A DNA stretch of 64,000 bases from Hyphomicrobiales bacterium (GTDB lineage Bacteria > Pseudomonadota > Alphaproteobacteria > Rhizobiales > TMED25): positions 591,305-655,304 of the forward strand of contig CBDBEU010000003.1 of NCBI GenBank assembly GCA_965204565.1. Reading direction: 5' to 3'. The position numbers were made by a program, and so were the translations under genes. Positions 1 through 48,861 of the stretch are shown one piece after another (the first letter of the stretch is position 1; each line of letters opens with the position of its first letter). The notes under the pieces were generated by a model. It had not been told where the DNA came from. It saw only the letters and a list, made by a program, of their open reading frames with translations, and made no database searches.

Positions 1-839
1 CTGGCAAGGGTTTCCGCCCCAATGTGCTGGACCTTGGCGGCTGGAAGTGGCTGGCGCTCGGCTACAACCTCACCTACCTCCTGGTGGCGGTAGTGATGCC
101 TATTATGTGTCTTGCGGTGGTCAGTCTGCATCCGGTGTGGACGGCGGAAATTCTGCCCGACCAGATGAGCTTCAACAATTATGAGAAGACGCTGTTCTTC
201 TGGCGGCCAGATTCGATCAAGGCCGCGACCAACGGCATCTTCAACTCATTCTTCCTTGCCTTTACCGGTGCGACCATCGCCATGATCCTGGCGCTGGTGG
301 TGAGTTACATGATCCATCGCACCAAGGGATTCGGCTCAAGGCTGCTTGATTTCCTGTGCGTTGTGCCGATCGGATTTCCCGGCATCGTGCTGGCTATGGG
401 TGTGCTCGTGACCTACATCCAAACACCGATCTACGCGACATTGTGGATCCTGCTTCTGGGCTATATCACCCGCTTCTTTCCCTATGGTCAGCGCAATATT
501 TCCTCCGTGATGCTGGCGATTTCCGAAGAGCTCGAGCAGTCCTCGCGCATGGCCGGCGCCTCGTGGTTCACCACGTTGCGGCGGATTACCATCCCGCTCC
601 TGAAACCCGGCATTTTCGCCGGCTGGGTGCTGCTGTTCATCATCTTCCTGCGTGAGCTGTCGATTTCGATCATTCTGTATACCACCGGCACCGAAACGCT
701 TTCGGTGGGCGTCTACTATCTCGCCAATTTCGAGAACGAGCCGCTGACTTCTGCGCTGTCGATGGCCCAGACACTGGTGCTATTGGTGTGCATCTATGTC
801 TTCCGCCGGTTGGCGGGCCGCGAGGCATTGACGGCATGA
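1..839 (+). CDS. ABC transporter permease, C-terminal portion (gene runs off the 5' edge of the window)
   Basis: The frame is open from the window edge (track ORF 24..839). The protein is polytopic and hydrophobic, with an EAA-type cytoplasmic loop (SSRMAGASWFTTLRRITIPLLKPG) as in iron/polyamine-type permeases. Its stop overlaps the next start (ATGA at 836-839). Confidence 0.8.
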   Translation, partial: GKGFRPNVLDLGGWKWLALGYNLTYLLVAVVMPIMCLAVVSLHPVWTAEILPDQMSFNNYEKTLFFWRPDSIKAATNGIFNSFFLAFTGATIAMILALVVSYMIHRTKGFGSRLLDFLCVVPIGFPGIVLAMGVLVTYIQTPIYATLWILLLGYITRFFPYGQRNISSVMLAISEELEQSSRMAGASWFTTLRRITIPLLKPGIFAGWVLLFIIFLRELSISIILYTTGTETLSVGVYYLANFENEPLTSALSMAQTLVLLVCIYVFRRLAGREALTA

Positions 840-1954
840 GTTCGGGCAGGGTGGCAGAGCCCTATCTGGAAGTCGAACATCTGATCAAGCTGTTCGGCGA
901 GGACCGGGCGGTGGATGATGTGTCATTTTCTATCCCCGAAGGCTCGTTCCTGACGCTGCTGGGGCCGTCCGGCTGCGGCAAGACCACAACCTTGATGAGC
1001 ATTGCGGGTTTGCATCATATCGATGGCGGCCGCATTTCAGTTGGCGGGCTGACTTATACCGCGCCGGTGGACGGCGTGTTCCTGGCGCCGGAAAAACGCG
1101 ACATCGGCATGGTGTTCCAGTCCTATGCCATTTGGCCACATATGACGGTGGCGCAAAATGTCGCCTATCCACTAGAAATCCGCAAAATCAACAGGGGTGA
1201 GATCGACGACCGGGTGGCTGAGGTTCTGGCATTGGTTGGCCTTGGCGATTTCGCCGACAAGCTCGCGACCCAGCTTTCTGGCGGCCAGCAGCAGCGCGCA
1301 TCGCTCGCGCGGGCCATTGTCGCGCATCCGCGCCTGCTCCTGTTCGACGAGCCTTTGTCCAATCTGGATCTCAAATTGCGCGAGCAGATGCGTGTCGAGC
1401 TCAAGCGCATACAAAACGAGGTCGGCATTACCTCGGTCTATGTCACCCATGACCAGGCTGAAGCATTGGTGATGAGTGACGAGATCATCGTGATGAGCAA
1501 AGGAACGATCGAGCAGCGCGGCAATCCGCTCGATATCTACACCAACCCGGTCAATCGCTATGTCTCCAATTTCATTGGCATCGCCAATCTGCTCGATTGC
1601 CGGGTGCTGGAGGCCAATGGCGTTGATGGCGTTCATCACGGAACCGTCGAGGTGGCGCAGGATGGCGAGGCCATCCAACTCAAATGCCGGCTTGGCCCGG
1701 GCGTTGAGGCAGGCGCGCCGGCGGTTTTGTCAGTGCGACCTGAAAATGTGCGCGTTGCGCGCTCCAAGGATAGCGGCGACGCGCTTCCGGGCGAGATATC
1801 CAGCGTGGTGTTTCTGGGCAATTGCGTCGATGCGCAGGTCGATTGGGGCGGCTTTGAATGGAAGGTGCTGGGCCATCCGCGCGACGGGTTGAAGGTGGGC
1901 GAGAAGGTCTATCTCAATCTTGATCCTGATCACACGCTGGCGGTGCGGCCATGA
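836..1954 (+). CDS. ABC transporter ATP-binding protein (PotA/FbpC-like with TOBE-type C-terminus)
   Basis: Walker A GPSGCGKTT, signature LSGGQQQR and Walker B LLLFDEPLS are present. ATG 836 is in the frame of track ORF 788..1954 and overlaps the permease stop. Confidence 0.9.
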   Translation: MSSGRVAEPYLEVEHLIKLFGEDRAVDDVSFSIPEGSFLTLLGPSGCGKTTTLMSIAGLHHIDGGRISVGGLTYTAPVDGVFLAPEKRDIGMVFQSYAIWPHMTVAQNVAYPLEIRKINRGEIDDRVAEVLALVGLGDFADKLATQLSGGQQQRASLARAIVAHPRLLLFDEPLSNLDLKLREQMRVELKRIQNEVGITSVYVTHDQAEALVMSDEIIVMSKGTIEQRGNPLDIYTNPVNRYVSNFIGIANLLDCRVLEANGVDGVHHGTVEVAQDGEAIQLKCRLGPGVEAGAPAVLSVRPENVRVARSKDSGDALPGEISSVVFLGNCVDAQVDWGGFEWKVLGHPRDGLKVGEKVYLNLDPDHTLAVRP

Positions 1955-3069
1955 GTGATACAAATAAGCCGATGGTCGAGATCGAGCATCTGAACAAGGT
2001 TTTCGGTCATGAGGTCGCTGTCGATGATTTCAATCTGGATGTTGCCGAGGGCGAGTTCGTCACGCTGCTGGGCCCGTCCGGCTGCGGCAAGACGACGACA
2101 CTGCGCTGCATTGCCGGGCTTGAGCGGCCTGATGGCGGCGAGATCCGCATTGGCGGCGACACAGTCACCGCGCCCGCACGCGGCATTCATCTGACGCCCG
2201 AGCAGCGCAATATCGGCATGGTGTTTCAAAGTTATGCGGTGTGGCCGCATATGACGGTGTTCGACAATGTCGCCTATGGGCTGAGGGTGCGGCGCACGCC
2301 GGCAGCCGAGCGTCAGACGCGCACCATGCGCGCGCTCGAGCTTGTCGGGCTGACCGATTTTGCTGATCGCTATGCGACCAAACTGTCGGGCGGCCAGCGC
2401 CAGCGTGTCGCCCTTGCGCGCGCCATCGTCTATGAGCCGCGCGTGATTTTGTTCGATGAGCCACTCTCCAATCTCGATGCCAAGCTGCGCGAGCAGATGC
2501 GCGATGAACTGGTGCGCCTGCAAAGGGAGGTTGGCATCACCTCGGTCTATGTCACTCATGACCAGGGCGAAGCGTTGGTGATGAGCGACCGGGTGGTGGT
2601 AATGGACAAGGCGGTGATCCAACAGATCGGCAGTCCACAGGAGATCTATGCCGAACCGGCCAACAGTTTCGTCGCCGGGTTTATCGGCGTTGCCAATCTG
2701 ATAAAGGGCACGCTCAAATCGCGCCGCGGCCAGGTCTGCGAGGTCGAGATTGCGGCCAAGGATGGTAGCGACGGCTTTGCGCTGAAGGCTCATGGCGGTG
2801 AAGGAGTTGCGGCTGGTGATGGGCTCTTTATCAACATTCGCCCTGAGGATTTCAGCCTGCATCTGGACGAGCCGAAATCGGCAAGCGGCGGCAATGTGTT
2901 GAAAGGCGCGGTGATCGATACGGTGTATCTGGGCAATTGCGCCGAGGCGCGTATCAGCGTCGGCGGCCATGAGGTCGGAATTCAGATCGATCATTATGAA
3001 AATCTGGTATCGGGTCAGCCGGTCTATCTGACATTCAAGCCGGATCACGCGCTTTGTCTGGCGAGCTGA
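1951..3069 (+). CDS. ABC transporter ATP-binding protein (second, paralogous ATPase of the same system)
   Basis: Walker A GPSGCGKTT, signature LSGGQRQR and Walker B ILFDEPLS are present. The start overlaps the upstream stop (ATGA at 1951). Confidence 0.9.
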   Translation: MSDTNKPMVEIEHLNKVFGHEVAVDDFNLDVAEGEFVTLLGPSGCGKTTTLRCIAGLERPDGGEIRIGGDTVTAPARGIHLTPEQRNIGMVFQSYAVWPHMTVFDNVAYGLRVRRTPAAERQTRTMRALELVGLTDFADRYATKLSGGQRQRVALARAIVYEPRVILFDEPLSNLDAKLREQMRDELVRLQREVGITSVYVTHDQGEALVMSDRVVVMDKAVIQQIGSPQEIYAEPANSFVAGFIGVANLIKGTLKSRRGQVCEVEIAAKDGSDGFALKAHGGEGVAAGDGLFINIRPEDFSLHLDEPKSASGGNVLKGAVIDTVYLGNCAEARISVGGHEVGIQIDHYENLVSGQPVYLTFKPDHALCLAS

Positions 3070-3285
3070 ATTCTCACGGTGATTGATACGGCCGGGTCGA
3101 CCTCGGCCATGAGCGGCGCGGCACAGTCAGGCTCTGTTGCGCCCCGATCAGTTCCATGTTGAGCAAGCGTGAGCGCACCGGCCATCTGACTCAAATCGCC
3201 TCGATGACGGCGTTCAGCATCGGTATCATGGTGCAAAAGGGACTGACCGCTTGGCGAATGGTCAACTATGAAAAGTGCCTGATAG

Positions 3286-3525
3286 ATGAACTATGAAAAC
3301 AAGGAGACGCCTATGCAGACTGCAAGGCTATTGGAAGGCGCTCGGAGCAAACTTGTTGAGGCAGTAACGCGCAACCGCCTAATCCACGTGAACCGGAATG
3401 CAAAACGTTCCAACACGCTAAATGTCATCAACGAGAGGTCTGACGATGTTTTCTCGATCTTGCGGGCTAACGTGCGACGAATGAAGTTTGCAGCCACGGC
3501 GAGCGAAGAGGATGAAGAAGACTAG
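3286..3525 (+). pseudogene. N-terminal stub (~70-79 codons) of a DUF4011-type SF1 (Upf1-like) helicase, cut off where an IS3 element begins
   Basis: SKLVEAVTRNRLIHVNRNAKRSNTLNVINERSDDVFSILRANVRRMKF resembles the conserved N-terminal DUF4011 motif (rNrLlnf...l.i.de.pd.vf..L). A good SD (aaggaga) precedes ATG 3313. Such proteins normally exceed 1000 aa, and here the frame ends at the IS3 junction. The assignment is from memory of the family, not a search. Confidence 0.45.
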
Positions 3526-4516
3526 GATGACGAAGAGAAAGAACCATTCGCTCGGGTTCAAGGCCCCCGGGTTCAAGGCCAGGGTCGCGCTTGAGGCGAT
3601 CCGCGAAGAGATGACGCCGGCGGAGTTGTCGAAGAAATACGGCGGGCATGCGACCCGGATCAGCACGTGGAAGCGGGCAGCGATCCGGAACACGGCGTCT
3701 GCGTTTGACCGGCGGGGGCCGATCCGGCCCCGGCCGGTACGGTCGAGATCGAGAAGTTGCATTCCAGGATCGGGCGGCTTGTTGTCGAGCGGGATTTTTT
3801 GGCCGATGCCCCGGTTCGGCGGCTCGGGACGCGAGGCAAAAAACGGTGAGCAAGGATCATAAGCCGGGCGTTCGGCGTCAGTGCGCATTGCTGACGCTGA
3901 CGCGGTCCAGGCTCTACGATCAGCCGAAGGGCGAGAGCGCAGAGAACCTGCGCTTCATGGCAATCATGGACAGGCAGTTCCCGGAAACGCCGTGGTACGG
4001 ATCGCGGTAAATGGCGTGGCATATGCAGCGGCGGAGCCGCATGTGCGGACGGCACCGTGTCCGCCGCCGCCGTCTGATGCGCCTCATGCGGCCGGTCCCG
4101 ATCTACCGGGAGCTCGACAGCAGCAAGAAACACCTGCATCCCGATGCGTGGGGGCTTCCTGTATCTGGTGGCAATCATGGACCGGTACAGTCGAAAGGTT
4201 CCGGCTTGGCGACTGTCGAACACGCTCGAGGCAGACTTCCGTGCGGATGCCTTGAAGGAAGCGCCGGCCGGGCACGGCAAGCCGGAAATCTTCACCACAC
4301 TCACCCGGGCGCAGATCCTGATCGAGCAGTGGTCGCGCTTCTACAACACCGAGAGGCCACACTCGTCGCCGGGCTCTCGCCCACCTGTACCTGAAACGGT
4401 ATTGCCGAGGAGGCCGACAATCCCATACGCTGCAACCCTGATCGGCCGAACCGTCGATTGGACCTTGGTCGGATTCCAACTCAAAGGCCGGGTCACCAAA
4501 AAGACCCCGCACAGGT
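3500..4516 (+). mobile_element. IS3-family element, degenerate (orfA-like start at 3527; orfB pieces in at least 3 frames)
   Basis: orfA-like MTKRKNHSLGFK...ELSKKYGGHATRISTWKR. orfB pieces are KDHKPGVRRQCALLTLTRSRLY, FLYLVAIMDRYSRKVPAWRLSNTLEADF and FYNTERPHSSPGSRPPVPE. The left boundary is approximate. The right boundary is set by where similarity to the second copy of the 3' end (56188..56310) stops. Confidence 0.8.
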
Positions 4517-4715
4517 GAAGCCGAAACACCTCCGACATGCGCATGACGGCTTCGCACGCCATCTCCGCTTTTACAGACATCGCATGGGCAATGAACTCTA
4601 TCCGCCCGCACCGGCAGCGCGGCAAGCAGCCGGCATTCACATCACCATTTGCCCTTGCCGCAATGATTGGTGAAATTCCGGGAGGCCCGTGTCATAATGC
4701 GACGGTCACCCTTGG

Positions 4716-4791
<76 letters not shown>

Positions 4792-4849
4792 GGTATTTCA
4801 AGGAGTTGGAGAAAAATGTTCGGCTGACCACCCTGGAACGCCCCGCTAA

Positions 4850-5132
4850 AGCAACCAGAAAGCAACAACCCGTCCGGTCCGCCGGCAGACGTGTAGCCGT
4901 CGACCACGAATTTGCCCATCGAGGTGAGCGCGCCGCCGGCATAGCCGAACAGGGGTTCCAGAATGGCGCCTTCGTTCGGCAGGGCGATGGCATAACCGCG
5001 CCAGTCGAACGTGCATTCGAGCGTATCGCTTTCCTGTCCGCTTTCGTCCCTGATTCCGCACGAAATGAGCCTGGAATAGAAAATGCCGTTGACCGGCGAA
5101 CCGCCTGCCAGCACCCTGATGACCGGACGCAT
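4850..5132 (-). pseudogene. Phage late control protein D (P2 gpD-like), N-terminal ~95 codons only
   Basis: MRPVIRVLAGG...IRDESGQESDTLECTFDWRG...GAILEPLFGYAGG...MGKFVVDGYTSAGGP matches the gpD N-terminal pattern. The rest of track ORF 4692..5132 is non-homologous read-through into the tRNA. Confidence 0.7.
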
Positions 5133-5135
5133 GGA

Positions 5136-5378
5136 TCAGCCCCATAGCCGGTTCGGGCCGATCGGTGTTTCCGTCTCGGCATCCGGCATGACAATTTCGG
5201 TCCCGACCGGCACGTTGTGACTCACTTCCGCCAGGCCCGGATTGAGATCGAAGATTTGCTCGACATAACCGGAGAGCCGGGCGGCGCGGTTCGGGTCGTC
5301 GGGATAGAGCTTCTGGCGAAACCTCCAGGCGATTTCCTCGATGCCCATTTCGGTGCCGGTGACCTTGACCGTCGCCAT
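5136..5378 (-). CDS. Phage tail protein X (P2 gpX-like)
   Basis: 80 aa. NPGLAEVSHNVPVGTEIVMPD...NRLW matches the gpX pattern, and the gene lies between gpD and gpU/T remnants as in P2-like tails. Confidence 0.75.
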   Translation of the reverse strand: MATVKVTGTEMGIEEIAWRFRQKLYPDDPNRAARLSGYVEQIFDLNPGLAEVSHNVPVGTEIVMPDAETETPIGPNRLWG

Positions 5379-6910
5379 CAGAACAGCCCTCCAAATGCAC
5401 CGCCCCCATAGGGGGAGACGGTGACCGGGAATTCCAACTGCTTTCCCGCGCCGCTCCGGTCGATGTGAAATTGCGTGTCGGAAACCATCTCAATGATGAC
5501 CAGACCGAAGACACGCCCCGGTGTCGCGCCCGAAAACCCGACCATCATCACAGGCGATCTGAGCTTGTTTCCGGCCCGCTCCGCTCCAGCCTCGAGTGCA
5601 TCGCCGACACGACCGGCATCGGATACGAAATCGGTGAACGCCTCGCCGATCTCGCGCACCGCTTTTTCTTCACCGATCGGTCGCGGCGTCGGCAATGCCG
5701 CACGCTCCCGGAAGGCGGCAAGGGCCGTTCCGAGTTCGCGACCGGCTGCGCTGAGCGACACGGACTGAACAGCCTGCGTCACTCGATCAAACCATTGCGG
5801 GTTCGGTTCGGTCATTCCGGACCCGTCCGATTTCGGCGCAGCGGGCTCTGGCGCAGGTGTCTCGGACGGTGCCGGTTGTTCCGGCTCATCGACAAAGCCG
5901 GCCTTTTCGGCGAGCCATTTCATCCAGCTCGGCTGCTCCGGCCAATCGATATCGAATGAGATCAGCTCGCCAAGGGCATCAAACCTTGTACTGAACCAGT
6001 CTGTCAGGTCAGACCAGGCTTCTTCCATGCCGTCAATAATGAGCTCGACGATCAAAGTGCCAAGAGTGAACCGATATGTGATTGCCGACCGGATCGCGTT
6101 CCCGAGCCACTTGCCGATGCGCCGGCCGGCCGCTTCGACCTCGCCCTTCTCGGCATCGCTGGGCTGCTCCTGCGTGAACAGGTCGGAAAAGAAATTGTCA
6201 ACGGCGTCCCTGGCCCTGGCAAGCCGGGCATCAACGCCGGAGAAGTCGAACCAGCGGTCGAACGCGGCCATCGCCGCCTCGGCGTCTATTCCGATTATCC
6301 CGGCGATCTCGTCCACCCAGCCACGAACATCCGAGACAAGGCTTTCCCACTTGCCTGAAATCCATTCGATATCGGGTGCAAAAGCATCGTAAAGGCCGTC
6401 TCCAAAACCCTTCATGAACGCTTTGAAACGCTCCCGGTATTTCCAGAGCAGGAAGACAGCCGCTGCGATCAGGACGATGGTGAGAACGACCGGCCATCCG
6501 GCAGCTGCGATCGCCGACAAGGCCGCAACGGCAGCGGTGCGCAGACCGGTAAACAGCGTCGCCAGAGCCGTTCCCCTGCTGAAGGTCGCAAGCATGTGCA
6601 ATCCCGCCAGTGCGCCCTTGATCCGCCCGGGTGCGATCGATGCCAGAAACCAGCCGGCAGAACGGGCCAGACGACCGAATATCCGGCCGGCGCCCGCAAG
6701 CATCCTGAGTGGCCCGGCCAATAGCGCCACATTGCGACCGGCGCGGCCAAAGCGCATGAACAGGCCAAGAAACCTGAACAGTCGCAGGCCGAACGCTGCC
6801 CAGAGGAAACCGGCCACGCGCGATGCAATGCCGAAGGCCAGCATTGCGGCTGCGCTCTGCACGAGCACGCTTGCCGGTTCCGGGTTGGCCTGTGCCCAGG
6901 CGGCAACAAC
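5378..6910 (-). pseudogene. Phage tail tape-measure protein, 5'-truncated and fused in frame to the last ~50 codons of a gpU-like tail protein
   Basis: The protein is Ala/Gly-rich with TM-like tape-measure features (…AAVAALSAIAAAGWPVVLTIVLIAAAVFLLW…). Its C-terminus, GRVFGLVIIEMVSDTQFHIDRSGAGKQLEFPVTV, looks like a gpU C-terminus. The frame is closed by a stop at ~6911, where unrelated sequence begins. Confidence 0.65.
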
Positions 6911-6911
6911 T

Positions 6912-7074
6912 CACACTGCTGATCGGCAAGCACTTCGGCAATATTCGGATGCCGGTTGAAAAATATCTGCCCAAACCGGTCATCGATCCGCTCACGATCC
7001 GCATGAGCGAACTTATGGAGCAGCGCGGCAAAACCAAAGGCAAAGAGCCGGGTGAAGATGGCGATGTGTTATGA
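6912..7074 (+). pseudogene. C-terminal ~53-codon remnant of the gene that originally preceded the HerA-like ATPase
   Basis: The frame reads ...TLLIGKHFGNIRMPVEKYLPKPVIDPLTIRMSELMEQRGKTKGKEPGEDGDVL and ends in an ATGA overlap with the ATPase start at 7071. Upstream it abuts the truncated tape-measure gene on the other strand. Family unknown. Confidence 0.35.
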
Positions 7075-9252
7075 CCACGACCGTCGAACGCATCGGCACG
7101 CTTTCAGTCGGCCGGGTTGATGCCGTCACCGCCGAAGAGTTGTGCATCGCGCTTTTCAATGAAACTCCACAGGCGACCGCGTTGAATACCGGCACGCCTA
7201 CCGGTTTTCCGCGCGTCAATGCCTATGTACTGATACAGAACGAGATCGGCGCGGTCGTCGCGGTAATCAAGGAAATCTGCATCGTTCGTGCTAAACCGGC
7301 TCCCGGAAAGCACGACGATGCCCTTGTGGACCTTCCATATCCTGCCCGGACTATTTTGGCCATTCCGTTCGGCACACTGCTGCTTGAGGGAAATGACGGC
7401 GACGGCCAGCCACGCTATGCACTGGAACGCGGCATTCCGGTGCTGCCTTCGGTTGGCGATCCGGTTCTCCTTCCAACGGCAATGCAACTTCGTTCCATCG
7501 TCGAAGCCAAAACCGACGACCGCTTGATCCGGATTGGCTCTGCTCCTTTTGCCGACAACGCTCATGTATGTGTACCCCCGGACAAGCTGTTTGGCCGGCA
7601 TCTTGCCGTCCTTGGCAATACCGGCAGCGGGAAGTCCTGCTCCGTTGCCGGTGTTGTCCGCTGGTCGCTTGAAGAAAGTGCGGCGGCGAAGGCCTCGCAA
7701 GCGACAACGCAGAAAGGTGAAAAAGCCCAGCCGACCAATGCCAGGTTCATCATTCTAGACCCCAACGGCGAGTATTCACAGGCCTTTGAGGATGGCGCGT
7801 TGCCGGTCAGGCGCTTTTCGGTTGGCGGTAGCGACGGCGCGATTCCACTCACAGTGCCGGGCTGGCTTTGGAATGGACAGGAGTGGCGGCTTTCACGTCC
7901 GCGCAACCCGGAGTTCAGCGCCCCGTATTGCTCGGAGCACTGCGGCGGTTGCGCAATGCAGATGCGACCGCCCTGACGAAAAAAGCACAGGCGATCAATC
8001 GCTATATCAATTATGTCCGGCGGATTGAGCAGAACTATGCGGACCTGCCTCAAAGCGTTACCGGCTTTCCGCAAAACAAAGACTTCGGGTCACTGCTAGA
8101 GAGCCTGATTGAAATGAGTAAATGCGACGAGAAAGAGCTTGCCACCTGCGGCAATGAGACAGCCGATCTCGTGACCGCGATTGCGGCAATACGCGATCCG
8201 ATCGAGCAGGTGCGTACCAAGCGCCATTGGGTCAAGGGGACCGGATACAACGATTTCCAGTCTGGATTGACCTTCAAGCTGTTCTAAAGGCACTCCGCAC
8301 GATCACCGAAGCCTTTCCAATCGCTGCAACTCACGGCGAGATCAGCGAAGATGCACCGGTGCGGTTTGATGTCGTGGCACTTCCTGACTGTATCCGTAAT
8401 GTTGCTATGGAAACGGGCGGGCGGGCGGTTAATAACGTCGAACCGCTTATCAACCGCGTCTAGGTCATGCTTGGTGATGCCGGGCTCCGTCCGGTCATCG
8501 ATACCGAAGGTGCAGCTTCGTTCAGCGAGTGGCTGGCAGGCCTGCTTGGTCCCGGTGAAGGCGCTCCCGAACCGCTTGCTATTCTTGATCTCTCACTCGT
8601 GCCATCGGATGTTGTACATATTGCCGTTGCCGTGATTTCGCGACTGATATTCGAGGCACTGCAACGCTATATCAAGGAAACAAACGAAGCCCTTCCGACT
8701 GTGCTCGTGCTGGAGGAAGCGCACAGCTTCGTGCGCAAGAATGCCGATATTGGTGCGAGCGAACAGGCCGCTGATCTATGCCGCCAGACCTTTGAGCGAA
8801 TAGCAAGGGAAGGGCGGAAATTCGGTCTTGGGCTGGTTCTGGCATCGCAACGCCCGTCCGAACTCTCGCCGACAGTCTTGGCGCAGTGTAACTCGTTCCT
8901 GCTCCACCGCATCGTCAACGATGTCGATCAGAATCTTGTCCGCCGTCTTGTTCCCGACGCTTTGGGCGGGCTTCTCGACGAGCTTCCCATGATTCCTTCG
9001 CAGCAGGAAATCCCTCTCGGCCGGGCAGCCACCATACCCGTTCCCGTTCGCATCCGCGACCTGCAAAAGCCGCAGCGCCCGCGTTCGGATGATCCGAGTT
9101 TCTGGCACACATGGCTTGGCTGCAAAGGCGCTCCGCCAAACTGGACGCAAGTGGTCAAGACATGGGAAAAACCAGACGAAGAGGTCCACCAAGCGCAGAC
9201 CACGGAAAGTATCGCAGGTGACGATATCGACCCAGAACCGAACGAGGCATAG
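7071..9252 (+). pseudogene. HerA-like (DUF87) ATPase, inactivated by two frameshifts and one in-frame stop
   Basis: An N-terminal barrel-like region is followed by Walker A VLGNTGSGKS (~7615-7645), ARFIILDPNGEY and Walker B-like VLVLEEAH (~8700), then REGRKFGLGLVLASQRPSEL and NSFLLHRIVN. The reading frame changes near 7886 and near 8260-8280, and there is an in-frame TAG at 8461-8463. Confidence 0.8.
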
Positions 9253-9797
9253 TTATCGAGAACGCGCAATTTGACTCTGCTCTTCCGACAAATCCGGCGA
9301 AACGAAAAGAGGCAGGGTGATCGGTCAACTGAGAACATCAGACTTCATTTGCGTGGTCTACCTCAAAATCGGTATTTCATCCGCGGCTTTGCTTTATCTG
9401 TATGTGTTCGTTTGTTTTTTCCGGTTGTCTTCCGAGGTCAACCAAAATGGTCCACCTCAAATTGGATTTTCCCGCAATATCACAACGCCGGTTCCGACGT
9501 TTTCACGACCGCCTTCAAATCCTCAAAGTCCTGGATTTCCGGCATTTTCGGGCCGCAATCAAAAACCCTTCACAGCCGGTTTGAAGGGTCGTTGAAGGTC
9601 GTTGCCGATTTTGCCTTCAACACCGATTTTTCCGTCAAATTCTCAAACCAGATGTCAAACTACAGCCGGCAATGGCGAACCTCGTCTAGACTGGGCGGCG
9701 CTGCGCGATATATCACGGCGCTAACGCAGCACAAATCATACAATCCCGAGGCATTCTGGCGCGGTGAGGGTACATTCAGCGCGGCGTTTTCGTTTGC
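9253..9797. other. Low-GC, T-rich spacer with recurrent short motifs and hairpins; contains a 176-codon open frame (9271..9801, TTG start) of doubtful coding status
   Basis: By eye this is ~45-48% GC against ~60% around it. All three plus-strand frames stay open for 60-176 codons, and the minus strand has no ORF of 60+ codons between ~9340 and 9775. Motifs YCTTCAA/CCTCAAA/GTCAAA recur ~8 times in 9465-9660. There is a tandem TTGAAGG(G)TCG at ~9580-9602, plus hairpins CCCTTCA-N8-TGAAGGG (9566-9587) and GTTGAAGG-N15-CCTTCAAC (9590-9620). Confidence 0.5.
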
Positions 9798-10691
9798 GTG
9801 AAGCTTGAGCCCATGCGATCAAGCAGTGGGAGTTCGGTGCACAGCAAAATGAATGAATTGCCTGAACGCACGAGGCGGGTGCAATTTCGCGACACCAGCT
9901 TCGTTGTTGAGCCGATGGATCGTGGCCAGCGCAAGTTTTGGGACCGGTTCGAAGCGGTTGCGTGGGAGCCGGAAACCCTTTCCATTCTCAAGGCCAGCCT
10001 CGACCAGCGGACCACATTCATCGATATTGGAAGTTGGATTGGCCCGACGGCATTGTTCGCCGCGGCGCATGCGCGCCGTGTGATCGCTCTGGAGCCAGAC
10101 CCCCTGGCGCTGCGTCAGCTCAGGCGCAACATTGCCCTCAATCCGGACCTTGCCTCGCGCATCCAGGTGCTGGGCCGTGCCCTTTACACAAAAACCGGGG
10201 TTGTGACGCTGGGCTCGACCAAGCGCGGAGGCGATTCAAAATCGAGCATCGTCCATGATGACATGCGCACCGCCTGGGAGGTGGAAACCATCACGCCGTC
10301 CGAGCTTGCAAGCGCCTTTGCCGAAGATGAGCGGGTGTTCATCAAGATCGACATTGAGGGGGGCGAATATGCGGTTGGACCTCAATTGCAGCCGCTTTTG
10401 CGCAGCCAGACGGTGGCGGTTCTGCTGTCGCTGCACCCCAAGCTGATTGTCGGGCAGGCGCGCGGTATTGAACGGCTAAAGCGGCTGGTGCAGGCCGCGC
10501 AGGAGACCAACGAGCTGCTTGCGGCCTTTGAAGGCTTTGCATTTCACGAGGCACGAAGCGTTTCTTCGCTGCGGCGGCCGGATATCGAGCGCCTGGTACG
10601 ATGGGGCATTTGCTACCGGCCGCTTGGCGGAACCTGGCTGTTGACACGTGGACACCCTGCAGCCCCCTGTCTTCTGCTTGGAATCGGGTGA
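9798..10691 (+). CDS. FkbM family methyltransferase
   Basis: SAM-binding-like FIDIGSWIGPTALFAA and the FkbM signature-like FIKIDIEGGEYAV are present. The start is uncertain (GTG 9798 or ATG 9849). The last codons may be derived from the adjacent IS end. Confidence 0.8.
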   Translation: MKLEPMRSSSGSSVHSKMNELPERTRRVQFRDTSFVVEPMDRGQRKFWDRFEAVAWEPETLSILKASLDQRTTFIDIGSWIGPTALFAAAHARRVIALEPDPLALRQLRRNIALNPDLASRIQVLGRALYTKTGVVTLGSTKRGGDSKSSIVHDDMRTAWEVETITPSELASAFAEDERVFIKIDIEGGEYAVGPQLQPLLRSQTVAVLLSLHPKLIVGQARGIERLKRLVQAAQETNELLAAFEGFAFHEARSVSSLRRPDIERLVRWGICYRPLGGTWLLTRGHPAAPCLLLGIG

Positions 10692-10694
10692 CGA

Positions 10695-11885
10695 GAGCGC
10701 CTTTACGGCCGCGATGCGTGTCGGCCCTTTGCCTGGGTTGTGGTTCGGGATCTGGTTTCCTGGGGCCGGGCTATGCCACGGCGCCTTTGCGCCCCCGGAA
10801 CAGGAGCCGTTTCATGTTGAATGCGATGTTGGCCATGCCGATCCTGGCCCTCGCCCGGTCGATGCCGATGGTGCGGACGAAGAGCCCCATTCGTGCCTTC
10901 ATACCGGCGAAGGGATGTTCGATCGCGGATCGGACCTTCGACCCTGCGGCATTGGCCCTCTCGTGATGCACGGGCATCGGTTTGCCGGGCAGCGTCGGTG
11001 ACGATCCATGTCCGGACGAAGCCGTGGCGCCGGTCAGCATTGATATGGGATTTGCAGCCGAACACCGGCGTGGCGATTGCGCCCATCGCCGTGCTGTCCG
11101 GGCGCGTCTTCCTGCGCCCTTGCTTGAGCGTCCAACGCGCGTCGCGATCCTTTTGCGCCGGTTTCCGGGGATTGGCCTGCCAATCAGTCGGGATGCCCCC
11201 GCCCTTGACGATCTCCTTCCCGGCATCGGTCATGCGCCGGCGCGGGGCCGCCACGATGGTGGCATCGACGATCTGCCCGCCCATGGCGAGATATCCGGGC
11301 GAGATATCCGGCGTCCTCAAGATGCGCGTCGAACCGGGCGAGGAGTTTCTTCACCGCGCCGGTCCGCACCAGGGCTTCCCGGAACCGCCGGATGGTCGTC
11401 TCGTCCGGCGCCCGCGCGCCGTCATCGAGGCTGAGGAAACGGCCAAAGCTGCGCCGGTCCATGATTTGGGACGCCGCCTGCGCATCCGACAGACCGTAGA
11501 GCACCTGGATCACCAGCACCTTGAACATGAGGACCGGGTCCATCGGCGGGCGCCCGCCCTGCCTGCCATCGGAACGATCAAGCGTCGCATCCAACTCTGG
11601 CCGGAAGAGCTAGCTCGAAGTCGATACCCCCCTGCAAGCCGCTCCAGCGGATCTCCCGCCTTCGATAACGCCGCGTAGCGCTCATCCGGATCGAACAACC
11701 CGCGCTGTGCAGCCATCGTTACCCTTCGTCGCCGATATCCCCACGGAATCACGCCAACACGCTCAAAGCCAGGGGGGTCAAGGCGTCCACGTGAGTAGGC
11801 TTTGCCGGGTGGAAAGGACGCAAGGTAGCGGGCATGAGGGCCTTGGTGCACAGGGGTTGGGCCGCCCGGGAAATTTGTCCGCCGC
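10695..11885 (-). mobile_element. IS5-family element (type 1), transposase split over at least 4 frames
   Basis: Pieces are MAAQRGLFDPDERYAALSKAGDPLERL (start ~11713), GGRPPMDPVLMFKVLVIQVLYGLSDAQ, GGQIVDATIVAAPRRR...KDRDARWT and SKVRSAIEHPFAGMKARMGLFVRTIGIDRARARIGMANIAFNMKRL. Boundaries are approximate. Confidence 0.8.
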
Positions 11886-13416: not shown

Positions 13417-13925
13417 ATGGTTCTTCGCCGTCGAGCAAAGACGGATGCATGATCCATCCTTCAGCCACAGCCGGCGTCTCTCGGGTTGCTTGATGAACCT
13501 TCAGCCCTTCACGTCGCCGGATGCGCTTGACCCTGTTCAGGCCGACACACCGGCCATCCTGCCCAGGCAGCCGGTGGATGCGGCGATACCCGTAACTACC
13601 ATACCGGCAGGCAAGGCAGATGACGGCTTGTGTCGGCTTGTCCGGCGTCGGATCCGCAACCGCTTTCTTCACCCGCCCGCTCTCACGCTCCGGCTCCTTC
13701 AGCCGATGCGCCTGGTTCACCTCCATGCCGCCGTACATGCGACGCCATCAACAGCAACTCTGCTCCGACACACAAAGGCTGCGGCAAACCTCACCCACCG
13801 TCGCGCCCCGGCCAAGCCGCACCTCGGCTTCACGCAGCATTCCGATAATTCGCTCCGGGGAACAGTTCTTTCTCCGGCTCATCTTCGTCTCCCGTGACGT
13901 CCAAATGAAGCCGGATCCCCTCAAC
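13417..13925 (-). mobile_element. IS3-family fragment (5' part: orfA with internal stop, start of orfB)
   Basis: The reverse strand reads MSRRKNCSPERIIGMLREAEVRLGRGATVGEVCRSLCVSEQS (start 13882) and then ...YGYRRIHRLPGQDGRCVGLNRVKRIRRREGLKV. It is truncated by the IS at 13416. Confidence 0.7.
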
Positions 13926-14930
13926 CGACATTCCCCAATTAGAACGCCATTTCGATCATGCCGCCGCTGTTTGCGTACGGATCAATCCCCTTGGGCAGGC
14001 TGTGTCGTGGTTCGGGCATCCGGTTCGTGAACCGGGCGCGATTTATGGCTGCTGCAACGGGCTTGAACCGGAAGTCGGTCTGACCGGCACCCGTCGGGTC
14101 AGACCCGTCGAGCCGCTTCCCCCCGGGTTTGATCGTCGACACCGTCATGCAGGTACCGCTGGCCGGTACCGGGGGCGCACGGAGCCGTTGGATGGCCGCA
14201 AGGATGCGGGTGAACAGAGCGCCGCCGACAGCCGCCTCGGCCGGTTGGAACGTGATGGCTCGGGCGTGGCGGACGACCCGCGCTCCGATCCTGATGAGGC
14301 AGGTCCGCAGGCCGGTCGGCGACCGGTCGGCCGTCTCCTCCGGCAGGTCGATGCCCTGCAGGAAGACACCGGGATTGCAGGCCGATGCATGAAGTTGAAG
14401 CCGCACCTCGTTCCGTGCCATGCCCTTGCAGGAAAGACGCGTCCGATTGACCGCCTTCCTTCCTTCCTCGACATGCTGTTCGGCGGTGCCGCGTTGGTTG
14501 TAGAACCGAATGATCCGGTCCGGCTCCATCGGCGGGTTGGTGACGACAAAGCCGATCTTCGGGAACAAGTCACCCGGATGCCGTTCGACCCTGGCGACGA
14601 CCCGCCATGGTTTGTCCCGTGACGCGGCCTGATACGCGAAGTCGCCGCACATGGATCGGCGGGCGATCCGCGGGGCGCTTGAGCACAGGCGCAATCCTGC
14701 TTTCCGAAACAGCGGTCTTCCCAGGCCGGATGGCGTAGGAACAGCCTTCCGCCTCCGGCGTCTTGTAGAGCTCCGGGACGGCAAAAGCGGCATCGGCCCG
14801 GAAGAGAACCGCATCAGCTCACGATCCGCATATCGCGCCAACACCGACTTGAGCACATTTTCCCGGCCGTCGGCACTGTTGAACATTGCCGGGGCGCAAT
14901 GAACGGCGTTCGAGGCGACCAAACCGGTTA
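13926..14930 (-). mobile_element. IS1380-family element, 3' ~1 kb (copy 1), 5' part replaced by an IS427-like insertion
   Basis: The transposase C-terminus reads RFYNQRGTAEQHVEEGRKAVNRTRLSCKGMARNEVRLQLHA…IRIGARVVRHARAITFQPAEAAV. The terminal sequence CGACATTCCCC(A/G)ATTAGAACGCC is shared with the copies ending at 26224 and 29647. Confidence 0.85.
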
Positions 14931-15799
14931 GGGTCCGGCCTCATTATAGCCACGAGATGAGGGCTGCGGCGCGCGCGATAACTGCCATGACGTTTTTAAT
15001 GTTGCGCTCGAAGCGAGTTGCGATGCGCCGCCGGTCCTTGAGGCGGCAGAACATGCGTTCGATGATATTTCGCTCCCTGTAGACGGCCTGATCGTAGGGA
15101 TATCGGATCTTGCGGTTCTTTCGCGGCGGGATGACGGGCCCGGTCCCGCGCTCTTCAAGCCATTCGCGCAGTTCCCGGCTGTCACGGCCTTTGTCGCCGG
15201 CACGTTCGGCGCATGGCGGCATGGCCTCGATGCAGCGCTGTGCGACCTTGCAATCATACACGTTCCGGGCGTCGGGAGCAGGACGCAATTGACAAAAACA
15301 TGGGGCGGCCCTTGTGGTCGCGGACGGCGTGGATCCCGGTGTTGCGTCCGCCTTTGGTGCGGCCGATACCATGGGCCCAAGGCCCCCCCTTTTCCGCCGT
15401 CGGCGAAGCGATGAACCTTGATGCAGGAACTGTCGATGAACAGCCGGTCAGGCGTATCCTCAGCGCCTGCCGGAGCGCTGAAGATACCTTCCCGTATAAA
15501 ACCGCACCCGGCCCGGCGGACGAAGCGGTTGCAGAGCGCCTTCTTCGGCCCGTGTATAGCGGCTCAGCCGGCCCGTCGACCGCCACAGCGCAGCGCATGG
15601 ACGATCCCGTTCGGCACAGGACGATCGTCAACTGTTTCCGGGCGCTTCCTGCCGTGCACATCAGTCGGCAGAAGCGGCGCGATCCGGGCCTACTGAGAAT
15701 CGGAAAACCAGAAGGAATCATACATCTCGTTACCTCCTCATCGGAGGCAATGAACCATCCTCGGATCAAATCGGGAAGACGGTTATTGGGGCCGGACCC
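14931..15799 (-). mobile_element. IS5-family element of the IS427 group (type 2), transposase frameshifted
   Basis: Terminal inverted repeats are GGGTCCGGCC (14931) and GGCCGGACCC (15790-99). The C-terminal half reads DKGRDSRELREWLEERGTGPVIPPRKNRKIRYPYDQAVYRERNIIERMFCRLKDRRRIATRFE. The N-terminal half is in other frames (…KGGPWAHGIGRTKGGRNTGIHAV…). Confidence 0.8.
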
Positions 15800-18111: not shown

Positions 18112-18311
18112 TGCTGCCTCATGATCTGCAAAAACCGCATCCACCCGACGCGATTATGGACGATGGTGATAATGCTTATATCGCACGCGGCAGACAAGAC
18201 GAAGACTCAGCCGTTTCAGTTTCACCCGTCTTTGACCACCTTCGCCATCACAGCGGCCTTGCAATTGAACTGGCCGGTGGCCGTTCTGTCAGACCGGCAT
18301 TGGAATAAATC

Positions 18312-19706
18312 CCACTTTCCCAGGTAACGTGACGTTTTCGCGCCTCTGACAGCCGGTAACATGTTATATTTCGGCACGTTGTGTGGGCCGTAGGGGGCGG
18401 ATCACGAATCACCCGCAGGGTGCAGGAGAAACGGGTGATATCAGGCTCGGTTTCGACAGTCGGGTGCGGCTGGAATGCCATGGCTCGAAGATCGGTTCCG
18501 ACGGTGGCCCGTTGCCGTTCCGGGAGTTGGACGAGACCCCGGGATTGAACGATATTGCCGGCGGTCCTCTCGGAGATCCGCGAACCGTCCACAACTGTCT
18601 GCATTCCGTGGTCGGGCTTTTGCGGCAGCGGGTCTTCGGGCGATCGACCGGATATGATGATGTGAATGACGCGGACTGTCCGGCGCTCGATCCGTTGATG
18701 CGGCAGGTGGTCGGAGGGCGTGGCGTTGATGCCGAGGCTGCGTCTGCCGGCCGGATGGGTCGGTTCGAGACCGAGGTGTCGGCGGCCGCCGACAATCGCG
18801 GTGCGCCGGCGGACGTATCCGGTCAATAGATCGATCGGGCTCACGCCGCGATGGCGCCCGAATGGATCACACCGCGGACATGGGCTTCGGTCGGCCCGCG
18901 CCATGGCGCGCAGACCCACGGCGCGCAGGAAGGCACCGCCTGGAACGTGCATTTCGGCTGCATGTGCCGTCACCCCTTGTTCGTCCTTAACCGGTTTGGC
19001 CGCCTCGAACGCCGTTCATTGCGCCCCAGCAATGTTCACAGCGCTGATGGCCGAGAAAATGTGCTCAAGCCGGTGTTGGCGCGATATGCGGATCGTGAGC
19101 TGATGCGGTTCTTCCGCGCCGATGCCGCTTTTGCCGTCCCGGAGCTCTACAAGACGCCGGAGGCGGAAGGCTGTTCCTACGCCATCCGGCCCGGGAAGAC
19201 CGCTGTTCCGGAAAGCAGGATTGCGCCTGTGCTCAAGCGCCCCGCGGGTCGCCCGCCGACCCATGTGCGGCGCACCTGCGGCGACTTCGCGTATCAGGCC
19301 ACGTCACGGGACAAACCACGGCGGATCGTCGCCGAGGTCGAGCGGCATCGGGGTGACTTGTTCCCGAAGATCGGCTTCCCAAAGATAGGCTTCGTGGTCA
19401 CCAAGCTGCCGATAGAGCCGGACCGGATCATTCGGTTCTACAACCAGCGCGGCACCGCCGAACAGCATGTCGAGGAAGGAAGGAAGGCGGTCAATCGGAC
19501 GCGTCTTTCCTGCAAGGGCATGGCGCGGAACGAGGTGCGGCTTCAGCTTTATGCATCGGCCTGCAATCCCGGTGTCTTGCTGCAGGGCGCCGATCTGCCG
19601 GAGGAGATGGCCGACCGGTCGCCGACCGGCCTGCGGCCCCGCCTCATCAGGATCGGAGCACGGGTCGTCCGCCACGCCCGAGCCGTCACGTTCCAACCGG
19701 CCAAGG
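18312..19706 (+). mobile_element. IS1380-family element (copy 2): left end present, 3' end deleted, transposase frameshifted
   Basis: The left end CCCACTTTCCCAGGTAACGTGACG matches the ends at 31147 and 61496. Transposase pieces are 18383..18829 and 18851..19723. Similarity to the other copies stops at ~19706. Confidence 0.85.
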
Positions 19707-19719
19707 CGGTACCTGCCTC

Positions 19720-22077: not shown

Positions 22078-22647
22078 GCCGCCGGCGGATGTGGAAGGCC
22101 GCCCAGCCCTTCATCGATCCTGAGCGTCCGGTCTTGTTCGATGAGACCGGCGTCAACACCAGGATGGCCCGCCTCTACGGTTGGGCGCCGGTCGGCGAGC
22201 GCTGCCGGGACAGCGTACCCTTCGGCCACTGGAAGACGATGACTTTCATTGCCGGCCCTCTCCTCTCAGGCCTCACGGCCCCCGGGTCCTCGATGGTCCG
22301 ATGAATGACCAGGCTTTTCGCGTCTATATTGAGGAGGTACCGGCACCGACCCCGACACGCGGCGATGTTGTGGTGCTCGACAACCTGCCTGCCCATAAGG
22401 TCACCGGCATCCGTCAGATCATCGCCTCCCCACGCGCCCGGATCTTCTATCTGCCGCCCTACAGCCCCGACATGAACCCCATCGCAATGGCCTTTGCCAG
22501 GCTCAAGGCGCTGCTCGGGCAAGTTCCGGCCCGAACCGTCGACGCCCTCGTTGAACGCATCGGCTGCACTATCGACTGCTTCCTCCCGGCCGAATGCGAA
22601 AACGTCTTCCACGCCGCAGGATATCAACGCTCAATGTGAAAATGCCC
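22078..22647 (+). mobile_element. IS630-family element (type 2), 3' half only
   Basis: Closely similar, with scattered substitutions, to 48235..48828 (…FIDPERPVLFDETGVNTRMARLYGWAPVG…YLPPYSPDMNPIAMAFARLKALL…). The right end AAAATGCCC is followed by TA. Confidence 0.85.
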
Positions 22648-23078
22648 TAATTGAGGAATGCCGGACGTCCCAATTCGATCTGGCCTGCGGCCTCGATGCT
22701 ATCTAGCCAGTCGGTCGCCCGTTTGCTCGATAGATCCGCGCAGGGAGCGCCGGCAACCATCGCGGCAGCCCTGATCGATGCGGCAGCGGTGCGTTCGGCA
22801 GACAGCCATCCGAGCAGATGGCTGCGCGCAACTTTGAGCATGGCATCAAGTGTGACGACCACAACCACCGCCGAGATCAATACGATCAGCGTTTCAAGCG
22901 ACTGATTGGGGATGATTCGATCATAAATCTGCAGGACCACCAGAGGCAAAGCCAGGTTCAAGATATTCGATGCAAGGCTCGCAAGAATGGCCGAGCGCGG
23001 CAGAGCGGTCAGATCAAATATCGAATAATCTCGGCCTAACGACCCGCTTTTCCGATCCGCTGGGGCATCGTGGTTCAT
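22647..23078 (-). pseudogene. Type I secretion system permease/ATPase (PrtD/HlyB-like ABC exporter), N-terminal ~140 codons only
   Basis: SAILASLASNILNLALPLVVLQIYDRIIPNQSLETLIVL is the characteristic first TM segment of T1SS ABC exporters. The frame ends at the IS630 junction. Confidence 0.65.
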
Positions 23079-29504: not shown

Positions 29505-29646
29505 CGAAATCCCCCGAACGTTTGAAATGTGTTCTGGTCCGCTGAAGCACAAGGCACAGGCAATCGTGGGGGGAAGTTGGCTCCGCCCGCAACATGGCCG
29601 TCACAATAGAGTTGTGCGCGCACCGGGGCGGGTCACGTATTATAAT

Positions 29647-48828: not shown

Positions 48829-48861
48829 TAGAGCACGAACCCAGCAGCGGCGTATGGCCGC

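What the first reader, a model, noticed from the sequence alone, without database searches (positions are those of the whole stretch)
6912..9252. HerA-type defence-like ATPase is a pseudogene, and only the last ~53 codons of its upstream partner survive
The ATPase (Walker A GNTGSGKS, Walker B-like VLVLEEAH, ASQRPSEL) is broken by frame changes near 7886 and 8260-8280 and by an in-frame TAG at 8461-63. Its start overlaps (ATGA) the stop of an upstream frame. That frame is readable for only ~53 codons (…LLIGKHFGNIRMPVEKYLPKPVIDPLTIRMSELMEQRGKTKGKEPGEDGDVL) before it collides with the truncated prophage tape-measure gene. Bacterial HerA-like ATPases of this type usually work with an upstream effector, such as the SIR2 or DUF4297 partners in known two-gene defence systems. 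I cannot assign the surviving tail to any of those families. Intact homologues of this pair in other genomes might therefore reveal a partner that is not one of the described ones.
Basis: partly seen in the sequence, partly recalled or inferred. Interest (0 to 1): 0.6.

Follow-up and report, generated by a model that had tools for sequence, protein, structure and literature searches.

The report
Decayed SIR2-HerA phage-defence locus
This is the dead remnant of an already described two-gene anti-phage system (SIR2-HerA): the ATPase gene is broken in three places, and the short upstream tail is the end of the ordinary SIR2 partner, not of a new one.

Summary
Window 7071-9252 (+) is a HerA-type ATPase gene readable only in three frames. 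It carries a 1-bp deletion at 7884/7885, a 2-bp insertion at 8266-8267 and a CAG->TAG change at 8461-8463. Repaired, it matches the PADLOC HerA model PDLC04098 end to end (E 2e-244) and intact 705-727-aa proteins at up to 81% identity.

The upstream tail (6892-7074) is not a chance ORF, and it is not a new partner. It is the last ~57-60 codons of a SIR2_2 protein. It matches PADLOC SIR2 model PDLC04079 at positions 376-419 of 430 (E 1.6e-9). It is 79% identical to the C-terminus of the 427-aa SIR2 gene directly upstream of the closest intact HerA (tblastn E 2e-21).

In 84 related loci from many phyla, 81 have an ORF abutting HerA. All 81 are SIR2_2 and all are hit by the tail. The tail is fused directly to an N-terminally truncated tape-measure gene of a prophage remnant, next to tRNA-Lys, in an IS-rich region.

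The locus is a non-functional relic of the known SIR2-HerA (Nezha) system. The hope of an undescribed partner is refuted. Interest is low.

The parts
6892..7074 (+). Surviving 3' end of the SIR2 (SIR2_2) effector gene: about 57-60 codons plus the TGA stop at 7072-7074. The first ~367 codons, including the whole catalytic domain, are deleted.
   Evidence: PADLOC SIR2 PDLC04079, profile positions 376-419 of 430, E 1.6e-9. tblastn with SIR2 of L004: residues 368-424 of 427, 79% identity, E 2e-21. DNA homology to five SIR2 3' ends begins at about 6893. phmmer with the tail hits all 81 upstream SIR2 ORFs. No other SIR2 piece lies in the 64-kb window.
7071..9252 (+). HerA-type ATPase pseudogene. The repaired product is about 726 aa.
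   Evidence: PADLOC HerA PDLC04098, residues 1-701 against profile 1-685 of 686, E 2.1e-244. Pfam DUF87 (HerA central domain), E 1.5e-15. Intact homologues of 705-727 aa at up to 81% identity. The gene reads in three frames.
7884..7885 (+). Lesion 1: 1-bp deletion in a G run (TGGGCGG -> TGGCGG), giving a -1 frameshift after ...WNGQEW.
   Evidence: MAFFT DNA alignment with L001 and L003-L006; frame change in tblastn.
8266..8267 (+). Lesion 2: 2-bp insertion (GG--TGACC -> GGATTGACC), giving a second frameshift.
8461..8463 (+). Lesion 3: TAG nonsense codon where all five aligned homologues have CAG (Gln).
7614..7637 (+). Walker A / P-loop GNTGSGKS. It is still intact in sequence and lies in the first frame segment.
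   Evidence: These columns are invariant among 40 homologues (G182-S189).
8701..8724 (+). Walker B-like VLVLEEAH. It lies in the third frame segment, so it is separated from Walker A by both frameshifts and the stop.
   Evidence: V546, L547, E549, A550 and H551 are invariant and E548 is nearly invariant among the 40 homologues.
5378..6890 (-). N-terminally truncated phage tail tape-measure gene. Its 5' end is fused directly to the SIR2 tail, with the junction at about 6885-6895.
   Evidence: PHROG tape-measure families (phrog_58, 8462, 1272 and others) match only internal or C-terminal profile positions. The minus-strand frame is open from 6910. In the distant 908-aa viral homologues L088 and L089, the match starts about 458 aa in.
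5136..5378 (-). Phage tail protein X gene, part of the prophage remnant.
   Evidence: Pfam Phage_tail_X, E 8e-10; phrog_46.
4862..5132 (-). N-terminal ~90 codons of a gpD-like phage tail protein gene, truncated. This is the end of the prophage remnant.
   Evidence: phrog_52 (tail protein) matches residues 1-90 only, E 7e-16. Homology of the backbone to the related contig L085 stops at 4868.
4716..4791 (+). tRNA-Lys (CTT). It is the likely integration hotspot next to which the prophage and defence remnants lie.
   Evidence: ARAGORN; Rfam tRNA, 70 bits. The content downstream differs in the related contig L085.

Best explanation
The locus is a degraded copy of the known two-gene SIR2-HerA (Nezha) abortive-infection defence system.

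The ancestor had a ~430-aa SIR2_2 NADase gene whose stop overlapped (ATGA) the start of a ~725-aa HerA ATPase gene. In characterised systems the two proteins form a large complex. HerA (a hexamer) activates SIR2 (a 12-14-mer), and on infection the complex depletes NAD+; ATPase and DNA-directed activities take part in the gating.

In this genome a deletion or illegitimate recombination fused the middle of a prophage tape-measure gene to codon ~368 of SIR2. This removed the promoter side, the start codon and the whole catalytic domain of the effector. Either with the effector gone or independently, HerA picked up a 1-bp deletion, a 2-bp insertion, a nonsense codon and several radical substitutions at otherwise invariant residues.

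The locus therefore has no defence function now.

Shown: the identities of both genes, the lesions, the junction, and the universal SIR2 partnership in relatives. Inferred: the order of events, and the biochemical mechanism of the ancestor, which is taken from characterised homologues.
For: HerA identity: PADLOC PDLC04098 end to end, E 2e-244. Intact relatives reach 81% identity and 100% coverage.

Tail identity: PADLOC SIR2 PDLC04079, positions 376-419 of 430, E 1.6e-9, with no other family at E<=1. Against the L004 SIR2 C-terminus it is 79% identical, E 2e-21. By eye, QQLTLLIGKHFG.IR..VE.YLPKP.IDPLTIRMSEL is shared with four SIR2 proteins.

Partner survey:
- The closest contexts (L001-L004) all show a SIR2_2 gene of 427-436 aa with a 4-bp overlap.
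- Of 84 loci, 81 have an abutting upstream ORF.
- All 81 hit Pfam SIR2_2 and PADLOC SIR2 PDLC04079.
- All 81 are hit by the tail.

Lesions at base resolution.

Relaxed constraint: the window copy deviates at 7 of 208 near-invariant columns (P56Q, V122I, L641I, A646E, L648P, W651R, L658P). Relatives of similar distance deviate at 0-1.

Solved relatives: the SIR2 profile's best PDB match is 8j4u_A, a chain in the same entry as a HerA-type ATPase chain (E 6e-35). The HerA profile hits HerA chains of defence complexes at E 5e-68 to 8e-41.

Mechanism of characterised systems: PMC11472057, PMC11514289, PMC13434337.

Context of decay: prophage remnant, IS fragments, and a region downstream of tRNA-Lys that varies between strains.
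Against: No tool result contradicts it.

Caveats:
- The two frameshifts could in principle be sequencing errors; the first lies in a short G run.
- The order of events (SIR2 loss before HerA decay) cannot be determined.
- No member of this particular long-HerA clade (PDLC04098/PDLC04079) appears among the solved structures, so the ancestral mechanism is extrapolated from relatives. The SIR2 profile aligns to PDB SIR2 only up to about residue 379, so the retained tail has no solved counterpart.
Confidence: 0.93

Rival explanations
1. The upstream tail is the remnant of an undescribed (non-SIR2, non-DUF4297) effector partner of HerA.
For: Pfam and NCBIfam give no hit for the 54-aa tail on its own. 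This is probably why it could not be recognised by eye.
Against: The tail matches the C-terminal positions of PADLOC SIR2 model PDLC04079. It is 79% identical to the C-terminus of proteins whose bodies hit Pfam SIR2_2. All 81 of 81 partners of related HerA genes are SIR2_2.
Confidence: 0.01
2. The HerA gene is actually intact, and the frameshifts are assembly or sequencing errors.
For: Lesion 1 is a 1-bp loss in a GGG run, a typical long-read error type. A related metagenome contig in the collection is labelled as low coverage.
Against: Lesion 3 is a base substitution (CAG->TAG), and lesion 2 is a 2-bp insertion outside any homopolymer. The partner gene has lost about 85% of its length, which no read error produces. 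Seven radical or rare substitutions sit at near-invariant positions. Other ORFs of the window match database proteins exactly, which argues for a polished assembly.
Confidence: 0.03
3. A fragment is still used. For example, the 261-aa C-terminal ORF (ATG 8467 to 9252), which begins one codon after the TAG, might be expressed as a stand-alone protein, or the gene might be decoded by programmed frameshifting or readthrough.
For: An ATG directly follows the stop, and the C-terminal third is the best-conserved part (84% identity to L004).
Against: That fragment lacks the Walker A P-loop, which lies in the first frame segment. All 120 listed homologues are single proteins, most of them ~700-727 aa. 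The C-terminal part carries the cluster of radical changes at invariant positions: A646E, L648P, W651R, L658P. No gene with this product is on record. Two uncompensated frameshifts plus a stop are not a known recoding arrangement.
Confidence: 0.03

Closest known systems
SIR2-HerA (Nezha) anti-phage system: PADLOC SIR2/HerA models, Pfam SIR2_2 + DUF87; characterised in E. coli, Paenibacillus sp. 453MF and Staphylococcus aureus (PMC13434337, PMC11472057, PMC11514289)
   Same: The gene pair and order are the same: SIR2_2 upstream, HerA downstream, with overlapping stop and start. HerA has an intact-looking Walker A/B sequence and matches a PADLOC HerA model end to end. The tail matches a PADLOC SIR2 model. 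The SIR2 profile of the intact relatives hits the SIR2 chain of PDB entry 8j4u, which also contains a HerA-type ATPase chain (E 6e-35).
   Different: The window copy is dead: SIR2 is reduced to its last ~60 codons, and HerA has two frameshifts and a stop. The clade's HerA is longer (705-727 aa) than the solved HerA proteins (571-696 aa). The SIR2 C-terminal tail retained here is not covered by the alignment to solved SIR2 structures. No member of this sub-clade was found among the solved structures.
DUF4297-HerA anti-phage system
   Same: It uses a closely related HerA ATPase. The HerA profile hits several defence HerA chains in the PDB with similar E-values. It is also a two-gene operon with the effector upstream.
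   Different: The partner remnant here hits only a SIR2 model in PADLOC, even at E<=1. All 81 partners of related HerA genes are SIR2_2, and none is DUF4297.
NurA-HerA DNA end-resection machinery (archaeal and bacterial housekeeping)
   Same: It shares the HerA/FtsK-type ATPase fold. There are weak NCBIfam hits to helicase_HerA, far below cut-off (88.8 bits against 970).
   Different: No NurA gene is adjacent in any of the loci. The best NCBIfam hits are the anti-phage HerA models. The genomic setting is mobile or variable DNA (and the window context).

Membership tests
SIR2-HerA (Nezha) defence system | A HerA/DUF87-type ATPase gene with Walker A and Walker B motifs | tested here: met
   PADLOC HerA PDLC04098, E 2e-244, full length. 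Pfam DUF87, E 1.5e-15. GNTGSGKS and VLVLEEAH are present. The reading frame is broken, so the gene is present but the protein is not.
SIR2-HerA (Nezha) defence system | A SIR2-family (SIR2_2) gene immediately adjacent, in the same orientation | tested here: met
   It is present as a remnant only. Window 6892-7074 matches SIR2 PDLC04079 positions 376-419 of 430 and the C-terminus of SIR2_2 proteins. The ATGA overlap with HerA is retained. In relatives, 81 of 81 abutting upstream ORFs are SIR2_2.
SIR2-HerA (Nezha) defence system | An intact SIR2 catalytic domain. The NAD+-binding Rossmann fold with the TTNYD and KLHGS motifs is conserved in the intact relatives. | tested here: not met
   The motifs are invariant or nearly invariant in the 81 relatives (N190, D192, H251 in L001 numbering). 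The corresponding ~367 codons are absent from the window, and tblastn finds only the tail. The locus is therefore a relic of the system, not a working member.
SIR2-HerA (Nezha) defence system | An uninterrupted HerA open reading frame | tested here: not met
   A 1-bp deletion at 7884/7885, a 2-bp insertion at 8266-8267 and a TAG at 8461-8463.
SIR2-HerA (Nezha) defence system | SIR2-HerA supramolecular complex, NAD+ depletion and protection from phage | not testable with these tools
   Known for characterised homologues (PMC11472057, PMC11514289, PMC13434337). This needs biochemistry and plaque assays on an intact relative.
DUF4297-HerA defence system | A DUF4297 effector gene next to HerA | tested here: not met
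   The tail gives no DUF4297 hit in PADLOC or Pfam at E<=1. None of the 81 partner ORFs hits anything in Pfam other than SIR2_2.
NurA-HerA repair complex | A NurA nuclease gene adjacent, and HerA reaching the NCBIfam helicase_HerA cut-off | tested here: not met
   helicase_HerA scores 88.8 bits against a cut-off of 970. No NurA appears in any context.

The most novel reading that the evidence does not exclude
The intact relatives form a sequence-distinct SIR2-HerA sub-clade: HerA of 705-727 aa with extra sequence at about residues 270-450, and SIR2 of ~430 aa with a conserved C-terminal tail, QQxTLLIGxHFGDxxTLVxxYLPKPAID. The clade spans many bacterial phyla and at least one archaeal MAG. It has no solved or, as far as I found, experimentally characterised member. 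It could differ in trigger or gating from the E. coli types I-III. Disruption of the SIR2 partner also recurs in this clade (this window, L008, L038, L043), which could reflect selection against a costly NADase effector. The window itself would contribute only a dead example.
Probability: 0.25. Interest if true: 0.3.

Novelty: already known. Interest (0 to 1): 0.1.

Why it matters
It matters little beyond correct annotation. The locus should be labelled as a SIR2-HerA pseudogene pair (SIR2 3' fragment plus a frameshifted HerA) next to a prophage remnant, and not counted as a functional or novel defence system.

It is one small example of defence-system decay in an IS-rich, strain-variable region downstream of a tRNA gene. 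The survey done here also confirms that this HerA clade is strictly partnered with SIR2.

Tried and rejected
- DNA search of window 6000-9600 against plasmids gave only distant (66-75%) partial hits to DUF87 genes and no informative context.
- Exact-product look-ups of window ORFs 8467-9252, 9798-10691 and 38685-40082 were not on record. I therefore could not retrieve the source contig, or other strains carrying the same pseudogene.
- The exact-sequence cluster look-up showed only that the window comes from an 826,527-bp NCBI/ENA contig, with 90% cluster neighbours named Rhizobiales/Hyphomicrobiales MAG.
- The genome-contig scan did not return the source genome.
- tblastn of the tape-measure fragment against phage and plasmid records found nothing. 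Only distant (~31%) IMG/VR relatives were found.
- A search for att-like direct repeats of the tRNA-Lys 3' end, or repeats flanking the junction, found nothing convincing. The deletion mechanism (microhomology, IS-mediated or other) remains undetermined.
- The Rfam scan of the window found only the tRNA.
- I considered and rejected a third system gene. A HATPase_c gene follows HerA in L001 and L002 but not in L003 or L004.
- I did not run structure prediction. The sequence evidence was decisive, and a model of a pseudogene product would add nothing.

Full report
**1. Observation**

The region was read directly and translated in three frames. An ATG at 7071 opens a frame that encodes a HerA-like N-terminal region with the P-loop GNTGSGKS (7614-7637). 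That frame loses homology after ...PGWLWNGQEW.

tblastn with an intact 725-aa homologue (HerA of locus L004) places the gene in three frames:
- Residues 1-271 lie in frame +3 (7071-7885).
- Residues 268-398 lie in frame +2 (7871-8266).
- Residues 399-725 lie in frame +1 (8269-9249), with a stop where the homologue has Gln.

A MAFFT DNA alignment with five intact homologues resolves the lesions:
- A 1-bp deletion in a G run at 7884/7885.
- A 2-bp insertion at 8266-8267.
- CAG->TAG at 8461-8463.

Two other indels, a 6-bp insertion at 7676-7681 and a 6-bp deletion at 8240, are in frame and look like ordinary variation.

**2. Identity of the ATPase**

The repaired 727-aa product gave these matches:
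- Pfam DUF87 (HerA central domain), E 1.5e-15.
- The NCBIfam anti-phage HerA models, though below their equivalog cut-offs.
- PADLOC HerA model PDLC04098 from end to end: residues 1-701 against profile 1-685 of 686, E 2.1e-244.

A search of the 5.8-billion-protein collection returned thousands of relatives. The best are intact proteins of 705-727 aa at 75-81% identity and 96-100% coverage, from Alphaproteobacteria such as Thalassobaculum, Roseitalea, Roseovarius, Novosphingobium and Sphingopyxis.

**3. Identity of the upstream tail**

Pfam and NCBIfam say nothing about the 54-aa peptide. PADLOC matches it to SIR2 model PDLC04079 at profile positions 376-419 of 430, E 1.6e-9, with no other family even at E<=1.

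The genomic contexts of the three closest HerA proteins all show a 427-436-aa gene with Pfam SIR2_2 directly upstream. Its stop overlaps the HerA start by 4 bp. The C-termini of these proteins read ...GRPQQLTLLIGKHFGDIRTLVEHYLPKPAIDPLTIRMSELVERRGK..GKE.GEDGG.P. The window reads ...PRRQQLTLLIGKHFGNIRMPVEKYLPKPVIDPLTIRMSELMEQRGKTKGKEPGEDGDVL.

tblastn gives 79% identity over SIR2 residues 368-424 of 427, E 2e-21. This is the only SIR2-like segment in the whole window. At the DNA level the homology begins at about 6893. The tail is therefore real coding sequence, not read-through, and it is the end of a SIR2 gene.

**4. Systematic partner survey**

A profile of 40 HerA relatives (A1) retrieved 80 loci from species-representative genomes. 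They span Proteobacteria, Bacteroidota, Planctomycetota, Acidobacteriota, Actinomycetota, Bacillota and even a Methanothrix MAG, at 40-78% identity. Together with L001-L004 this makes 84 loci.

The loci broke down as follows:
- 81 have an ORF of at least 100 aa ending within a few bases of the HerA start, usually with the 4-bp overlap.
- All 81 of those hit Pfam SIR2_2 and nothing else.
- All 81 hit PADLOC SIR2 PDLC04079, best E 5e-209.
- All 81 are hit by the window tail in phmmer, E 4e-26 to 2e-5.

The three exceptions are two contig-end cases (L009, L014) and one further decayed copy: L008, Methylocystis parvus, where HerA starts at residue 68 and no SIR2 is present. In L038 and L043 the SIR2 gene is itself split.

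The tail has homologues upstream of related ATPases, and the homologues are neither solitary nor NurA-paired. However, the partner is the described SIR2, so the hoped-for new partner does not exist.

**5. Junction and context**

On the minus strand, a frame open from 6910 down to 5378 encodes a protein that hits PHROG tail tape-measure families only in the internal and C-terminal parts of their profiles. Distant IMG/VR relatives are 908-aa ORFs in which the match to the window's second residue begins about 458 residues in. About 450 N-terminal codons are therefore missing.

Downstream on that strand lie:
- A tail-X gene (5136-5378; Pfam Phage_tail_X).
- The first ~90 codons of a gpD-like tail gene (to about 4862; phrog_52).
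- Then tRNA-Lys(CTT) at 4716-4791.

There is no spacer or IS end between the tape-measure fragment and the SIR2 tail; the junction is at about 6885-6895. The simplest reading is that one deletion or illegitimate recombination removed the 5' half of the tape-measure gene, the rest of the prophage on that side, whatever lay between, and the first ~367 codons of SIR2. This is an inference.

The surroundings are rich in IS fragments:
- An rve fragment at 4144-4518.
- An IS5/DUF772 fragment at 10649-11794.
- Several ~90%-identical DDE_Tnp_1_4 copies further on.

A related metagenome contig (L085) is 98.6% identical over window 1-4868. It diverges exactly at the end of the gpD fragment and lacks 4869-10648 altogether. 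The DNA downstream of this tRNA therefore varies between close relatives.

**6. State of the HerA gene**

Besides the three disabling lesions, the window copy departs from its relatives at 7 of 208 near-invariant columns: P56Q, V122I, L641I, A646E, L648P, W651R and L658P. Relatives at comparable distance show 0-1 such departures. This is what relaxed constraint after inactivation would produce.

It also argues against explaining the lesions as sequencing error, as do two other points:
- One lesion is a substitution to a stop codon.
- 85% of the partner gene is missing.

**7. How it works, or worked**

What follows rests on established work on characterised homologues, not on tests done here. 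SIR2 and HerA assemble into a megadalton complex. HerA binding allosterically activates the SIR2 NADase. ATPase, helicase/nickase and nuclease activities take part in the gating. Infection leads to NAD+ collapse and abortive infection (PMC11472057, PMC11514289, PMC13434337).

The SIR2 profile of the intact relatives hits PDB chain 8j4u_A at E 6e-35. That chain is a SIR2-like protein in an entry that also contains a HerA-type ATPase chain (8j4u_M). The HerA profile hits several defence HerA chains at E 5e-68 to 8e-41. The SIR2_2 motifs TTNYD and KLHGS are invariant or nearly so in the 81 partners.

The ancestor of the window locus most likely worked in this way. The present locus cannot. It has no effector catalytic domain and no translatable ATPase containing both Walker motifs.

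**8. Comparison, novelty and verdict**

The locus is a relic of a known system. PADLOC already holds HMMs that cover both genes of this sub-clade.

The only mildly open points concern the intact relatives rather than this window:
- Their HerA is longer than the solved ones.
- The conserved SIR2 C-terminal tail has no solved counterpart.
- SIR2 disruption recurs in a few genomes.

Its interpretation is partly supported: the pseudogene, the defence-type HerA and the effector remnant all stand, but the idea of a novel partner is refuted. Novelty: already known. Interest: about 0.1.

Noticed in passing
window 13923-14933, 18309-19709, 25838-26230, 29644-31150, 61088-61497; also 10649-11794 and 4144-4518: The window is dense in diverged (~88-93% identical) copies and fragments of a DDE_Tnp_1_4-type IS. 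It also holds an IS5/DUF772 fragment and an rve (IS3-like) fragment. This suggests a genome or region undergoing IS-driven decay and rearrangement.
   Followed up: partly
window 4716-4868 versus L085 7948-8100 and beyond: A related metagenome contig (ENA ERZ25068762) is 98.6% identical over window 1-4868. It diverges 77 bp past tRNA-Lys(CTT), exactly where the gpD fragment ends. It then carries ~890 bp of other DNA (a Sel1-like small ORF at L085 8415-8675) before an IS5 copy. It lacks the prophage remnant, the SIR2-HerA relic and the FkbM methyltransferase gene (window 4869-10648).
   Followed up: partly
L008 (Methylocystis parvus NZ_CP187161.1), L038, L043: Other genomes also hold damaged copies of this system. 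In L008 HerA starts at residue 68 and no SIR2 lies upstream. In L038 SIR2 is split into two frames. In L043 SIR2 is interrupted by about 1.1 kb. Loss of the SIR2 effector may be recurrent.
   Followed up: partly
L001 1334-10300 and L002 208-9174: In the second-closest relative, the intact SIR2-HerA pair sits in an island: tyrosine integrase, HTH_17, RES-domain gene, SIR2, HerA, then a 656-aa HATPase_c gene. The HATPase_c gene is not found next to the pair in L003 or L004, so it is probably a separate cargo gene.
   Followed up: no
HerA alignment A1, roughly residues 270-450 of the repaired window protein (window ~7880-8420): HerA proteins of this clade are 705-727 aa, longer than the solved defence HerA chains (571-696 aa). 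Profile matches to PDB chains cover mainly the N-terminal barrel/P-loop region and residues ~440-700. The middle segment may therefore be a clade-specific insertion.
   Followed up: no
window 22079-22649 and 48245-48830: A ~570-bp direct duplication at 93% identity, unrelated to the IS families above. The second copy overlaps the ORF at 48059-48820. That ORF's 90% cluster contains two 193-aa proteins from the same 826-kb contig.
   Followed up: no
window 9798-10691 (+): An FkbM-family methyltransferase ORF (Pfam Methyltransf_21, E 3e-8) lies between the HerA pseudogene and the IS5 fragment. It is preceded by ~545 bp without a convincing ORF (9253-9797). No gene with exactly this product is on record.
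   Followed up: no
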